Source: Octopus vulgaris (Eukaryota). From it: DNA of 64,000 nucleotides. Positions 26,895 through 62,150 of the stretch are shown piece by piece. The first letter of the stretch is position 1. Each line of letters opens with the position of its first letter. The notes beneath the pieces were generated by a model. That model searched no databases. It had not been told where the DNA came from and saw only the letters and a list, made by a program, of their open reading frames with translations. Position numbers and translations under genes: made by a program. The stretch spans positions 28,396,001 through 28,460,000 of the forward strand of contig OX597822.1 of the NCBI GenBank assembly GCA_951406725.2. The letters are read 5' to 3'.

Positions 26895-28850
26895 ATGGAA
26901 ATATTTGTCACAAGCTTTCTAATGTTCATCTTACTGATAAACCACACAGTTCAAACATCAACTATAAACACAACTGAACCCTTCAATTGTCCACCAGCTT
27001 TGTGTTCTGAAAGCCCCAGGACAGACCGTTGTTCATGTCAGCAAGACTGCTATTTATACGATGAATGTTGTTCCGACCGTCTTAATCACACAGCTTCTGA
27101 CCTCGAGACTCCCTATCCCTCAATGTATTACAGCTGTAACAATATTAATGGTGGAACTTACTATCAATTTCACCGCTGTCCAAATAACTATGATGTAACG
27201 GAGCATGTGAACAACTGCGAAAATCCTAACTCAGACCAACAACTACATGATGTACCTGCTTTTGGTAAAATGAGTAAAAAACTCTATAGGAACTTATATT
27301 GTGCTCTCTGTCACGGAGAAGAATATATTTTGTGGAATGTTTCTAAACCATATTTCTCTGGGGATATGACTTTTAGTATCGAAAGTGTTGAAGTAGAAAA
27401 GCAAGTCTCTTCACGCGAAATTAACCAATATCTATACAAATGCGCTCCTTATATTTCAGAGTGTACGCTAAATAATCCCAATAAAACATTGGAGAATCTA
27501 TGCAAGAACAATGGTATGAGACTTGTTACCGCCAATAATACGGACTTTAGAAATATTTACTGTGCACTTTGCAATGGTTTTGAAATTTACGATATCCATT
27601 GCGACATATTATATGTTCATCCTCGTTTGGTGAATTTAGACAAACCTCTAACAGGCATTTTTGTTGTTTCTGTCAAATCTAAAGAAATGCAAAAGGAAAT
27701 TTCAATCAAGGATTCTTGTGTGAAAAATACTGTCTACGATATGAATACAAAGCAATGTCGACAAGTATCCTATAATTCTATTCTAAATTGTACTGCAACG
27801 AGATTAAATGAATCTGAATATCACATCACTAATGATGGTCTTCTATACTTAAATAATACCCATCGTTTGCTGAATCAATCAGATTTCGGCTTCGATGACG
27901 ATGGTACAATAATCATCTGTGTAAAAAATATTATCAATGTATTACGAAAGTATTCCGAAGCTGAATCTTATATCACGTTAGTAGGGCTTATATTTTCTAT
28001 CCCAGCTCTAGCAATCACTATTATAGTCTATCTCTGCATACCTGATCTCCGTACCTTACCAGGTAAATTACTCATTAGTCTTTTATCAGCATTGTTTGTA
28101 GCTGAGCTTCTCTTTCTTATCTCGTCACAAGTCACTGCATCTACAGTGTTGTGTAAATCTTTAGCTATAGTGAAACATTATTCTTTTCTAGCGAGTTTCT
28201 TCTGGATGAATGTTTTATCATTCGATGCCTCGTACACTTTCTCAGGACTTACACTACTTCGAAGTAAAGGGAAAGGTACCAAGAGATTTGTATTGTATTC
28301 TTTATATGCTTGGATCTGTCCACTTGTAATAGTAACAATATCGCTAATATTTGAGTACACACCTGGAAATCATGGACTTTCTCCAGAATATGGAATTGGC
28401 ATTTGCTGGATTACAAATGGTAAAAGTCTGCTATGGCTGTTTGCATTCCCTGTTATGCTCATTTTATGTCTTAATATAACAGCATTTATCCTCACTATCA
28501 GAGGACTATATATGGCTAGCAAACTTTCTGCGAAATATCTGAAAAAACATAACAATTTGGATTTCATTGTTTGTATAAAACTGTTTTTTATTATGGGACT
28601 TACATGGACATTTGCATTCCTGTATACTTTTACAAAAATCGAAGAATTCTCTCTAATATTTTGTATTTTAAATTCTTTTATTGGATTATTTATTTGTCTA
28701 TCATTTCTCTTCACAAAGATCGTCTGCCGCAATACGTTTAAAAGATTTCGTCATATTTCAAAATGGCTTCGCGCAGAATCGAGTGAGATATCTTCAACTT
28801 CTCAGAAAACTTTATCGACACAAATACCAACAAAAGTTTCGTTTGAATAG
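26895..28850 (+). CDS. Class B / Methuselah-like GPCR with SMB-like Cys-rich ectodomain, paralogue 1 (651 aa)
   Basis: Signal peptide; CSCQQDCYLYDECCSD (somatomedin-B-like); YRNLYCALCHG and FRNIYCALCNG repeats; 7 hydrophobic segments with LRTLPGK, HYSFLASFFWMN, YSLYAW.CP, PEYG..CWI; uninterrupted ORF. Confidence 0.93.
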   Translation: MEIFVTSFLMFILLINHTVQTSTINTTEPFNCPPALCSESPRTDRCSCQQDCYLYDECCSDRLNHTASDLETPYPSMYYSCNNINGGTYYQFHRCPNNYDVTEHVNNCENPNSDQQLHDVPAFGKMSKKLYRNLYCALCHGEEYILWNVSKPYFSGDMTFSIESVEVEKQVSSREINQYLYKCAPYISECTLNNPNKTLENLCKNNGMRLVTANNTDFRNIYCALCNGFEIYDIHCDILYVHPRLVNLDKPLTGIFVVSVKSKEMQKEISIKDSCVKNTVYDMNTKQCRQVSYNSILNCTATRLNESEYHITNDGLLYLNNTHRLLNQSDFGFDDDGTIIICVKNIINVLRKYSEAESYITLVGLIFSIPALAITIIVYLCIPDLRTLPGKLLISLLSALFVAELLFLISSQVTASTVLCKSLAIVKHYSFLASFFWMNVLSFDASYTFSGLTLLRSKGKGTKRFVLYSLYAWICPLVIVTISLIFEYTPGNHGLSPEYGIGICWITNGKSLLWLFAFPVMLILCLNITAFILTIRGLYMASKLSAKYLKKHNNLDFIVCIKLFFIMGLTWTFAFLYTFTKIEEFSLIFCILNSFIGLFICLSFLFTKIVCRNTFKRFRHISKWLRAESSEISSTSQKTLSTQIPTKVSFE

Positions 28851-29542
28851 TACACTTGTTGTTCGGAGAACGAAACGAACTTTATAGCATTTGATAAAAA
28901 GTGAAACAATATTTTCCGCTTTCGTAATGGGACAATATACTGACTATATATTCATTAATAATAATGCTTCATATTATGAATGTATTGACTGTACAAAATA
29001 ATCATGGTGTACGTATATGCATGAACTTCCATGTACTTATTGATACACATATATATATAGCGGTATCTATATGTATGTGTGCACGTATATCCTTGTAGCT
29101 GTATGCTTGTGCGGATGTGCGCGTGCACCTTTGCTCTTATTTGTTTTGACTGTTCGCATATGTGTTTATACTGTATATAAGAGTGAGAACGTATGAGTGT
29201 GTGATTGTGGGTGCGCGCACGCGAGGATGTAAGTCTGTGTGTGTACGAGACAACACCGCGTAAAAAGCAGGTGGTGCATAAGCATGAACTCAGCCCTCGG
29301 CTGAAACTAGTAAAAGATAAAAGATATATATATATATGCGTGTGTGTATGTATGTATATATATATACATACATATATACATATATATATATATATATATA
29401 TACATACATATATATATATGTATATATATACATGAATATATATACATGAATATATATATATATATATTATTTAGAGATAGTAGTCCCCTTCATCACACTC
29501 CATATAAATGAATTTTAATTTAATACTTACTACTCATTTCTC

Positions 29543-59860: not shown

Positions 59861-60146
59861 CCAGTGGAAAGTTCCAAGTCTATAAATGCAACTAACAGAT
59901 TAGAAATAATAAAACTCATTTATAATTCAATCTTGAATATCTAACATACGATATTTAATATTGATATTTCTTTTTTCCTGTGAAACTTAACGGAAACGTA
60001 AATTCTTTAGTCCACAAGGGATTAAATTAATGGAAATTCAAACATGCTAAAATATTTTATTGTGAATTCAAACGTAATACTATACGTCAAGCTATAAATA
60101 TATATATATACTTTGTTATCTATGAGACTGTTTTAGAACTTTTGAA

Positions 60147-62150
60147 ATGGAAATTCTTATACTTTTCATGATTATGCTTTCTTTTACAAATCTTACATCA
60201 CCACAAATACTAACAGACTTCCATGGCGGAAGTATTTCTTTATGTCCTCCACCCTTATGTTTTGATACAGCTAAAAATGATCAAAAGCGTTGTTCGTGTC
60301 GTCAGGATTGTTACCTCTTTAATGAATGTTGTATCGACATGATTAATAATACCAATTTTGATCAGAAAAATCGCCCTTATCCATCAATATATTATAGTTG
60401 TAGATACGTTGATTATTTTCGTTATAGTGTATATCAGTTCGATCGATGTCCGCTGAACCATGATGTTATGGAGTATGTAAACAGCTGTGAAAATCCTGAC
60501 TCAAATGATCGACTGCAAAACATACCTGCTTTTGGAAATACAAGTAAAATACTCTATAGGAACTTATATTGTGCTCTGTGTCATGGAGAGGAATTCATTC
60601 TTTGGAATCTTTTATATCAATGTGATTTAGGACCAAATGTAAGTTTCGAAAATATATTAAATAATGTGAAAGATGAAAATTGTTCGGCAACTGTGAAACC
60701 GCCTTCAGAAGATTTGGAGAAATATATATATCCTTGTACTGAATTCATTGCGAATTGTCCTCAAGATAACAATAATACGGAACAGAGAATTAAATGTGAA
60801 TCTAATCCAATGGCTTTAGTAAAATCTGGAATTAACGTATTTAGAAACATTCACTGTGCTACATGTAACGGGTTTGACGAAGTCGTTGATTACTGTGGAT
60901 ATCCACGCGTTTCTTTTGACGTCCCATTTACGCCTTCCTTAACTATCCTTTTTAATTACCATACCAATTCTCTGGTAATAAAAGATAACCGCCGTAATCG
61001 AGATTCTGTCATGCAGTTTACCTCTTGTCAAAAACCTGCTGTCTACGATATGAATACTAAGGAATGTCGACAAGTTATCTACCAACCTCAGCTAAATTGT
61101 ACGACAACAACATTAAATGAATCTGAGTATCATATTACAAGCGATGGTCTCCTGTACATAAATAATACCCAACGTTTACTGAACCAATCAGAATTCACTC
61201 GTGATTCTCAAGGTATAATAAGTATCTGTGTAAAGAATAGTACCACTGTAATACGAACGTATTCTACTGCTGAACGTTATATCACATTTGTGGGATTAAT
61301 TATCTCTATTCCGGCTCTAGCAATTACTATTATAGTCTATCTCTGCATACCCGATCTCCGTACCTTACCGGGTAAATTACTCATTAGTCTTTTATCAGCA
61401 TTGTTTGTAGTTGAGCTTCTCTTTCTTATCTCATCACAAGTCACTACATCTACAGTGCTGTGTAAATCTTTAGCAGTAGTAATGCATTATTCGTTTCTAG
61501 CGACTTTCTTCTGGATGAATGTCATGTCATTTGATGCCTGGCACACTTTCTCGGGACTCACACAAATTCGAAGTAAAGGAAAACATACCAAGAGATTTGT
61601 AATATATTCCTTGTATGCTTGGATCTGTCCACTTGTAATAATAACAGTATCACTGATATTTGAGTATATTCCTGGAAATCATGGACTTTCTCCAGAATAT
61701 GGAAATGGTGTTTGTTGGATTACAAACGGAAAAAGTTTGCTGTGGCTCTTTGCAATACCTGTAATAATTATATTATGTCTTAATATATTTGCATTTATTC
61801 TAACCGCTAGAGGGCTGCATTTGGCCAAGAAACTTTCTTCGAAACATTTATCTAAACACAATAAAACTTTGCCCTTCATATATATAAAATTAAGTTTCAT
61901 CATGGGTTTAACATGGATATTCGCCTTCTTGTATACATTTACGAGAATTGAGGAATTTTCCCTGTTATTTTGTATCTTAAACTCATTCATAGGATTATTT
62001 ATATGTTTATCATTTCTATTAACAAAGATTGTCTGTCGTAATTTCCTTAAACATGTACAGAAGATTCCTAAGTTCTCTGCTATTATTCACACCGATATTT
62101 CTCCAACTTCCAAAACACAAATAACGGATATGAGTGTTTCACATAACTAA
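60147..62150 (+). CDS. Methuselah-like GPCR paralogue 5 (667 aa)
   Basis: Divergent ectodomain with the same Cys scaffold (CSCRQDCYLFNECC, YRNLYCALCHG, FRNIHCATCNG); stalk and TM1-4 very similar to paralogues 1-3. Confidence 0.93.
   Translation: MEILILFMIMLSFTNLTSPQILTDFHGGSISLCPPPLCFDTAKNDQKRCSCRQDCYLFNECCIDMINNTNFDQKNRPYPSIYYSCRYVDYFRYSVYQFDRCPLNHDVMEYVNSCENPDSNDRLQNIPAFGNTSKILYRNLYCALCHGEEFILWNLLYQCDLGPNVSFENILNNVKDENCSATVKPPSEDLEKYIYPCTEFIANCPQDNNNTEQRIKCESNPMALVKSGINVFRNIHCATCNGFDEVVDYCGYPRVSFDVPFTPSLTILFNYHTNSLVIKDNRRNRDSVMQFTSCQKPAVYDMNTKECRQVIYQPQLNCTTTTLNESEYHITSDGLLYINNTQRLLNQSEFTRDSQGIISICVKNSTTVIRTYSTAERYITFVGLIISIPALAITIIVYLCIPDLRTLPGKLLISLLSALFVVELLFLISSQVTTSTVLCKSLAVVMHYSFLATFFWMNVMSFDAWHTFSGLTQIRSKGKHTKRFVIYSLYAWICPLVIITVSLIFEYIPGNHGLSPEYGNGVCWITNGKSLLWLFAIPVIIILCLNIFAFILTARGLHLAKKLSSKHLSKHNKTLPFIYIKLSFIMGLTWIFAFLYTFTRIEEFSLLFCILNSFIGLFICLSFLLTKIVCRNFLKHVQKIPKFSAIIHTDISPTSKTQITDMSVSHN

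What the first reader, a model, noticed from the sequence alone, without database searches (positions are those of the whole stretch)
26895..62150. Tandem, diversifying array of single-exon SMB/Cys-rich Methuselah-like GPCRs: candidate variable receptor repertoire
Seen: five intact co-oriented ORFs plus one remnant, each with a signal peptide, SMB-like knot, two RNxxCAxCxG repeats, many N-glycosylation sequons, no GAIN/GPS consensus and a class B-type 7TM. ORFs stay open while the spacers are full of transposons. Known: cephalopods have expanded GPCR families, and lophotrochozoan Mth-like/adhesion-like receptors of this kind are largely orphan. Inference: birth-death evolution, segment shuffling and a hypervariable loop fit a chemosensory, immune or self-recognition receptor system. 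I cannot establish from sequence alone that it is undescribed.
Basis: partly seen in the sequence, partly recalled or inferred. Interest (0 to 1): 0.75.

Follow-up and report, generated by a model that had tools for sequence, protein, structure and literature searches.

The report
Octopus receptor array sharing one leader
These five genes belong to an already published octopus-only cluster of Methuselah-like cell-surface receptors; new here, one short outer loop changes far faster than the rest of the protein, and four of the genes are likely alternative endings spliced onto one shared first exon, which points to a fast-evolving recognition family whose ligand is unknown.

Summary
In detail: five intact class-B GPCR ORFs plus a 3' remnant. 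The array is not undescribed. It is part of a ~700-kb cluster (20 intact, ~10 broken, 6 fragmentary copies). Its O. bimaculoides counterparts are listed in group 4 of Ritschard et al. 2019: octopus-specific, Methuselah-like, tandem, expressed in arm nerve cord, suckers and skin.

Paralogues are recombinant mosaics. The ligand is unknown. The scan's earlier notes hold nothing on this family.

The parts
9981..10014 (+). 3' end of a non-coding leader exon; donor GAAGCAG|GTCAGT after 10014; 5' start not mapped; single copy in G000
   Evidence: loose ends of runs X1 and X3 at g3's acceptor match 9981-10010 exactly; donor; one genome match
26677..26696 (+). g1 splice acceptor (polypyrimidine tract + CAG|GTATAC), same motif as g3's; junction not shown
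26895..28850 (+). g1, 651-aa SMB-like/DUF8401/7tm_2 GPCR
31376..31395 (+). g2 splice acceptor, same motif; junction not shown in this genome
31601..33550 (+). g2, 649-aa paralogue, 92% identical to g1
40219..40238 (+). g3 splice acceptor, used: joined to the leader across a 30,224-base intron that contains g1 and g2
40416..42428 (+). g3, 670-aa receptor; 88% identical to O. bimaculoides A0A0L8H6V6 (group 4); mosaic, g4-like at aa 146-247 and g1-like in the 7TM
40509..40592 (+). SMB-like cysteine knot of g3 (aa 32-59), below the Pfam cut-off
41157..41201 (+). hypervariable, positively selected loop of g3 (aa 248-262); the equivalent loop varies in all paralogues
41352..41507 (+). membrane-proximal module of g3 (aa 313-364), weak structural match to residues 122-188 of the Methuselah ectodomain (1FJR)
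44063..44082 (+). g4 splice acceptor, same motif; one X5 contig stops here with 25 unaligned letters, partner not shown
   Evidence: (table 8, record 27)
44117..46045 (+). g4, 642-aa paralogue; aa ~241-287 rearranged, lacking the two cysteines that g3 has at aa 294 and 307
46316..46553 (+). remnant of a sixth copy (TM6-7 and tail, broken); partly covered by RNA-like contigs, perhaps within g4's 3' UTR
60147..62150 (+). g5, 667-aa receptor of the next subfamily; 87% identical to A0A0L8GGP0 (group 4, sucker-enriched); has a different candidate acceptor about 290 bases upstream

Best explanation
The window holds five members of the published octopus-specific Methuselah-like GPCR cluster, which likely act as a diversifying set of receptors for protein or peptide ligands in arm tissues, with g1-g4 likely chosen by alternative splicing from one shared leader exon. 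Shown: the genes were born by tandem duplication, decay often, and exchange segments by recombination or gene conversion. The 7TM is under purifying selection (omega 0.30), and one ectodomain loop is under strong diversifying selection. Shown for g3 only: a single-copy leader exon is spliced across g1 and g2. Inferred: g1, g2 and g4 use the same leader, so one promoter sets the tissue (axial nerve cord) and acceptor choice sets the receptor. Inferred: the loop is the ligand-contact or antagonist-contact surface and the conserved 7TM gives a common G-protein output. The ligand class is inferred from insect Mth receptors binding peptides (titles in the reference list; otherwise recalled).
For: Group-4 identity: 6 of 6 accessions tested are in group 4, on two scaffolds with 8 and 14 genes. 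Census. Selection: M1a vs M2a p=1e-22 for aa 146-293; p=3e-12 to 3e-7 in a six-gene clade with a gap-free loop, whose 7TM gives p=0.15; p=2e-5 and 6e-8 with strict gap removal under two other alignments. Orthologue pairs differ at 47 of 84 loop positions, 264 of 2018 other ectodomain positions and 119 of 1547 7TM positions. Mosaicism: 8 of 8 triplets tested have a breakpoint at permutation p<0.004. Leader. In O. bimaculoides, gene model 22021290m spans 24 kb over nested 22021291m, and the four adjacent genes share a nerve-cord-dominated profile (0.51, 0.67, 0.65, 0.41). RefSeq names different paralogous ORFs 'isoform X1/X2' under consecutive accessions in two species.
Against: The leader junction is shown for one gene, in 2 of 3 RNA-like runs, both from study P1, and from contigs rather than reads. 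The runs' RNA status is a guess by the tool, although the junction is canonical and the DNA run is continuous there. The codon test is my own code (NEB, not BEB; not checked against codeml; no null simulation). Recombination and multi-base mutations can inflate it, and dS is also raised in the loop in several pairs. The 7TM of the 19-gene set also gave a weak signal (p=0.036, one site). Ritschard et al. found homogeneous omega 0.306 and no selected sites. No ligand, cell type or G-protein data exist. Similar expression of paralogues could come from read cross-mapping.
Confidence: 0.55

Rival explanations
1. Ordinary birth-death array with relaxed constraint: the loop is an unconstrained surface linker, and its variation comes from indels, gene conversion elsewhere and multi-base mutation, not from selection.
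For: Loop omega is near 1, with dS raised too, in most distant pairs. Loop length varies. About 16 of 36 loci are broken or fragments. The published test found no selection.
Against: An omega>1 class is found in a gap-free clade. Young pairs show an excess of replacements in aa 248-293: L038/L041 6 nonsynonymous and 0 synonymous; L030/L031 26 and 6; g1/g2 16 and 3. The model places the loop at pLDDT about 80, so it is not predicted as disordered.
Confidence: 0.2
2. Contact chemosensors for external cues (prey, microbes, conspecific or own skin) in suckers and skin.
For: The g5 orthologue has 0.61 of its expression in suckers, and several Scaffold69694 genes are sucker- or skin-enriched. Tandem, intron-poor receptor arrays with shared 5' UTR exons are known among mammalian olfactory receptors.
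Against: The g1-g4 counterparts are mainly in axial nerve cord, with sucker share 0.01-0.12. The variation is in a large glycosylated ectodomain, while ECL1-3 are conserved (entropy 0.7-1.0 against 3.0), which is unlike small-molecule odorant or taste GPCRs (recalled).
Confidence: 0.15
3. Neuronal identity or wiring code: neurons or glia of the arm cord each pick one acceptor, giving cell-specific receptors, in the manner of an inverted protocadherin cluster.
For: Nerve-cord expression, one leader with several whole-ORF exons, and an adhesion-GPCR-like 7TM.
Against: Only four alternatives follow this leader. No GPS or GAIN signature. No single-cell data. Fast loop change between closely related species fits an arms race better than a stable code (inference).
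Confidence: 0.07
4. The leader belongs to g3 alone, or the junction is read-through; g1, g2 and g4 are independent genes with their own promoters.
For: Only the g3 junction was read. X1 shows no loose end at g4's acceptor and has an unspliced contig across it at depth 5.9.
Against: g1-g4 share a conserved acceptor, and no copy of the leader exists near them. The O. bimaculoides model links a far-upstream exon to the second gene of the block.
Confidence: 0.25

Closest known systems
Octopus-specific Methuselah-like GPCR expansion, group 4 of Ritschard et al. 2019 (PMC6408891; parts 1-4 of 6 of the main text, and rows of supplementary tables found by accession and scaffold)
   Same: The same gene cluster: counterparts of g1, g2, g3 and g5 are listed. 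Tandem on two scaffolds; expressed in axial nerve cord, suckers and skin. My 7TM omega of 0.297 matches their 0.306.
   Different: The main text has no occurrence of 'ectodomain', 'splic' or 'somatomedin' and reports no positive selection. Here there is a selected loop, mosaic genes, a leader exon that skips genes, and one contiguous ~700-kb cluster. Their figures and supplement 1 were not viewed.
Mth/Mthl family sensu de Mendoza et al. 2016 (PMC4768249; parts 1-2 of 3 read)
   Same: Class-B 7TM. Non-arthropod members lack Pfam Methuselah_N, some carry Somatomedin_B, and independent expansions occurred in molluscs and annelids.
   Different: That paper treats the Mth ectodomain as acquired in arthropods. 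Here the membrane-proximal module weakly matches residues 122-188 of the Mth ectodomain, which suggests that part is older.
SMB-DUF8401 (PF28443)-7tm_2 invertebrate receptors
   Same: Same architecture. DUF8401 is precomputed on the Octopus homologues and on Atlas clusters of molluscs, arthropods and annelids. 2936 clusters at 50% identity hit the ectodomain profile.
   Different: This is a young, compact (635-700 aa), coding-intronless tandem expansion. The family's function is unknown, and 'PF28443' gave 0 papers.
Mammalian olfactory receptor loci sharing 5' UTR exons (Barnes et al. 2020, PMC7055050; passages only)
   Same: The coding region of one receptor gene is spliced to the 5' exon of an upstream gene.
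   Different: There it is a rarity (7 loci in human, 7 in mouse) in class-A receptors. Here it may be the main design of a four-gene block.
Adhesion GPCRs (ADGRG2, ADGRD1)
   Same: Best solved-structure matches to the 7TM, E 6e-20 to 1e-17; large glycosylated ectodomain.
   Different: No GPS or GAIN sequence signature.

Membership tests
Ritschard 2019 group 4 (octopus Mth-like expansion) | Orthology to listed group-4 genes | tested here: met
   g3 88% to A0A0L8H6V6, g5 87% to A0A0L8GGP0, g2 83% to A0A0L8H7T3, g1 79% to A0A0L8H6B0; 6 of 6 accessions tested are group 4
Ritschard 2019 group 4 (octopus Mth-like expansion) | Class-B (7tm_2) transmembrane domain | tested here: met
   5 of 5
Ritschard 2019 group 4 (octopus Mth-like expansion) | Tandem co-localisation | tested here: met
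   36 loci in about 700 kb of C9
Ritschard 2019 group 4 (octopus Mth-like expansion) | Absent from squids (octopus-specific) | not tested
   taken from the paper; no squid genome was searched
Mth/Mthl family (7TM-defined) | 7TM falls in the Mth/Mthl clade | not tested
   rests on the tree of PMC6408891; my tree had no insect Mthl rows
Arthropod Methuselah-ectodomain receptors | Pfam Methuselah_N (PF06652) match | tested here: not met
   no hit; the genome search gave 4 sub-threshold hits, none on C9
Arthropod Methuselah-ectodomain receptors | Fold of the membrane-proximal ectodomain domain | tested here: inconclusive
Adhesion GPCRs | GPS motif or GAIN sequence signature before TM1 | tested here: not met
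Adhesion GPCRs | GAIN fold | tested here: inconclusive
   fold searches of the whole ectodomain cannot exclude a family
Somatomedin-B domain proteins | Pfam PF01033 above cut-off | tested here: inconclusive
   10 of 24 ectodomains at E<=1, best 8.6e-4; g5 14.8 bits against a cut-off of 23.1
DUF8401 (PF28443) receptors | DUF8401 ectodomain | tested here: met
   precomputed on close homologues such as P0002; no DUF8401 row appeared in the local Pfam scans, an older copy, so this is indirect
Receptor genes sharing a 5' UTR exon | Junction from an upstream exon across an intervening paralogue | tested here: met
   10014 to 40239 in runs X1 and X3
Receptor genes sharing a 5' UTR exon | Same leader joined to two or more paralogues in one species | tested here: inconclusive
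   conserved acceptors, a partial X5 contig at g4 and annotation clues; g1 and g2 junctions not read
Somatically diversified or combinatorial receptors (VLR, Dscam, clustered protocadherins; definitions recalled) | Protein assembled from variable plus constant coding cassettes | tested here: not met
   each receptor is one complete ORF

The most novel reading that the evidence does not exclude
A receptor-choice locus: one promoter and leader exon feed several tandem exons, each encoding a whole GPCR with a positively selected recognition loop, so arm-nerve cells pick their receptor by 3' splice-site choice (an inverted protocadherin design). The design repeats along the cluster (a second block starting at g5), giving octopus arms a self/non-self or pathogen-driven recognition repertoire.
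Probability: 0.15. Interest if true: 0.85.

Novelty: new variant of a known kind. Interest (0 to 1): 0.5.

Why it matters
The expansion is one of two octopus-specific GPCR expansions and has been described as under plain purifying selection with unknown function. Locating the variation to one ~13-residue loop gives a direct handle for finding the ligand (loop swaps, ectodomain baits) and argues for a recognition role. A shared leader would explain the matched nerve-cord expression of neighbouring genes, and it makes receptor choice testable by one RT-PCR. A Methuselah-like proximal module in a mollusc would push part of the 'arthropod' Mth ectodomain back to a much older, still orphan invertebrate receptor family.

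Tried and rejected
Haplotype or collapse artefact for the window: rejected (g1/g2 block 88.5-89.6% identical; separate counterparts in O. bimaculoides). One copy elsewhere in the cluster (L013) may be an artefact: it lies in a 15-kb repeat at 99.3-99.5% and differs from L011 by one base in a T run.
Adhesion GPCR with GAIN: no sequence signature. Foldseek gave no match at E<=0.001, and no GAIN chain was listed; these absences are not proof.
Sequence support for the Mth-like proximal module: none (PDB profile searches; Pfam; genome search). The channelrhodopsin hits (E 0.4-0.7) were taken as chance.
Run search: no holder is on record as RNA.
Junctions to g1 and g2 were not obtained; the second read-laying gave no result.
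Per-region omega parsing from IQ-TREE failed and was replaced by my own model. L067 was left out as a long branch; L067, g4 and the three L065/L066-type genes were left out of the 15-taxon control; broken copies were left out of all codon tests.
The tree is the quick version, without bootstrap.
The paper on the Mth ectodomain structure is not held, so domain boundaries and ligand sites of Mth are recalled.
Paper searches found no later study of this cluster and no report of its leader exon; most subscription journals are not covered.
Earlier scan notes (8 shown of 185) concern the LRR adhesion group 3; two searches returned nothing.
No complex prediction was run, as there is no candidate partner.
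Full report
Observation. The window holds five intact + strand ORFs of 642-670 aa at the stated places, called g1 to g5 here, and a broken 3' remnant at 46316-46553. All 5 of 5 match Pfam 7tm_2, and none matches GAIN, GPS or Methuselah_N. Each has a hydrophobic N-terminus, two RNxxCAxC motifs, 22-24 ectodomain cysteines and 7-11 sequons. Identities to g1 are 92, 83, 70 and 61%. The g1/g2 duplicated block is only about 89% identical in DNA, so this is not a haplotype duplicate. 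SMB is sub-threshold. Repeat cover of the spacers ranges from 6% to 57%.

The cluster. The window is G000:C9:28396001-28460000. An ectodomain query gave 32 matches, 31 of them within C9 28.19-28.90 Mb. After tiling that region, I count 36 family loci: 20 intact ORFs of 635-698 aa, about 10 broken near-full-length copies and 6 fragments, on both strands. Five distant relatives lie elsewhere. One broken copy may be an assembly artefact. The nearest named proteins are from Octopus vulgaris, O. sinensis and O. bimaculoides, annotated 'Mth2' or 'Mth-like'. The quick tree shows many 1:1 pairs with the other species and some young duplicates (g1/g2, L038/L041); g1-g4 form a clade with three O. bimaculoides proteins.

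It is a published expansion. Ritschard et al. 2019 (PMC6408891; parts 1-4 of 6 read) describe group 4: 45 octopus Methuselah-like GPCRs, tandem on two O. bimaculoides scaffolds, with homogeneous omega 0.306 and no selected sites. The UniProt accessions of my O. bimaculoides hits are in group 4, 6 of 6 tested. [quoted passage not shown] The g5 orthologue has 0.61 in suckers. So the array, its tandem origin and its tissue expression are known.

Selection. Among 20 intact paralogues, entropy peaks at g3 aa 248-262 (3.0 bits, against 0.8 in the 7TM and 0.7-1.0 in ECL1-3). My own M1a/M2a test on region-specific trees (19 genes) gives 7TM omega 0.297 (p=0.036, one site), aa 25-145 p=7e-6, aa 146-293 p=1e-22 with 7 of 9 called sites at 250-260, and aa 294-374 p=0.12. 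Controls: a six-gene clade with a gap-free loop gives omega about 10-12 (p 3e-12 to 3e-7) with sites in the same loop and a non-significant 7TM (p=0.15); strict gap removal under two other alignments keeps p 2e-5 and 6e-8. Six orthologue pairs with O. bimaculoides differ at 47 of 84 loop positions, 264 of 2018 other ectodomain positions and 119 of 1547 7TM positions. Against this: in distant pairs the loop's dS is also high and omega is about 1; the code is unvalidated; recombination and multi-base changes can inflate such tests.

Shuffling. g3 groups with g4 at aa 146-247 (49 informative sites against 6) and with g1 in the 7TM (121 against 11). All 8 of 8 triplets tested show a breakpoint at permutation p<0.004. 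The O. sinensis counterpart of L025 is 97-100% identical over the first 400 residues and 64-76% in most of the 7TM, which suggests a recent exchange or a chimeric gene model.

The leader exon. Laying contigs on 36500-46700, run X1 covers g3 and g4 but not the unique sequence upstream that DNA run X18 covers. X1 and X3 (two samples, one study; 2 of 3 RNA-like runs) carry extra letters before g3's acceptor. These match window 9981-10010 exactly and end at a canonical donor after 10014. The intron is 30,224 bases and contains g1 and g2. The leader region is single-copy in G000. g1, g2, g3 and g4 all carry the acceptor TTTATCTNCAG|GTATAC 34-205 bases before their ATG. An X5 contig stops at g4's acceptor with 25 unaligned letters, partner not shown; X1 shows no junction there. 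In O. bimaculoides, gene model 22021290m starts 12.6 kb upstream of the nested 22021291m and spans it. RefSeq labels distinct paralogous ORFs as isoforms X1 and X2 under consecutive accessions in O. bimaculoides (g3-like and g2-like) and in O. sinensis (g5-like and L025-like). That these are single loci joined by a non-coding exon is my inference from the names. I put a shared leader for g1-g4 at about 70%. There is precedent in 7 human and 7 mouse olfactory receptor loci (PMC7055050, passages).

Mechanism. Shown: tandem birth and death, mosaic genes, a conserved signalling core, one fast loop, transcription, and one gene-skipping splice. Inferred: one promoter with alternative whole-receptor exons; the loop as the contact surface for a protein or peptide ligand or antagonist; a role in recognition in arm tissues. 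The conserved extracellular loops of the 7TM and the nerve-cord expression argue against small-molecule taste reception for g1-g4, though the g5 subfamily is sucker-enriched.

Verdict. This is a known expansion with three features I did not find in print (searches; figures and supplement 1 of PMC6408891 unseen, and they could show the leader exons). New variant of a known kind; interest 0.5.

Noticed in passing
window 2-1000, 11068-13068, 13387-15195, 16909-17646 (all - strand): Several related non-LTR retrotransposon RT fragments (RVT_1 plus zf-RVT in the two scanned); three of them lie inside the leader intron.
   Followed up: partly
window 26895-33550: Public protein P0001 (615 aa) joins the g1 ectodomain to the g2 ectodomain, and P0035 (999 aa) joins a g3-like receptor to g4-like parts; both look like gene-prediction artefacts across paralogues.
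   Followed up: partly
window 44837-44978: g4 carries a rearranged segment in place of the variable loop and the following hairpin; part of it (TRNIRKYNP) is also in an O. bimaculoides model, so the change predates the species split.
   Followed up: partly
G000:C9:28273089-28304225 (L010-L013): 15-kb tandem repeat at 99.3-99.5% identity; the second receptor copy differs by one base in a T run: a very recent duplication or an assembly false duplicate.
   Followed up: partly
G000:C9:28557000-28803000: Inverted block of the cluster built from 5-30 kb segmental duplications at 90-99% identity, rich in broken receptor copies.
   Followed up: no
window 59857 and L025 upstream: g5 and the next gene each have a strong candidate acceptor 215-290 bases before the ATG, and O. 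sinensis names suggest a second shared-leader block; its leader was not located.
   Followed up: partly
L069-L073 (C9 24.67 Mb, 30.70 Mb, 30.71 Mb; C3; C17): Five dispersed, single-ORF distant relatives (25-30% identity) outside the cluster.
   Followed up: partly
window 6353-6584 and 51142-51533: Imperfect palindromic elements, MITE-like.
   Followed up: no
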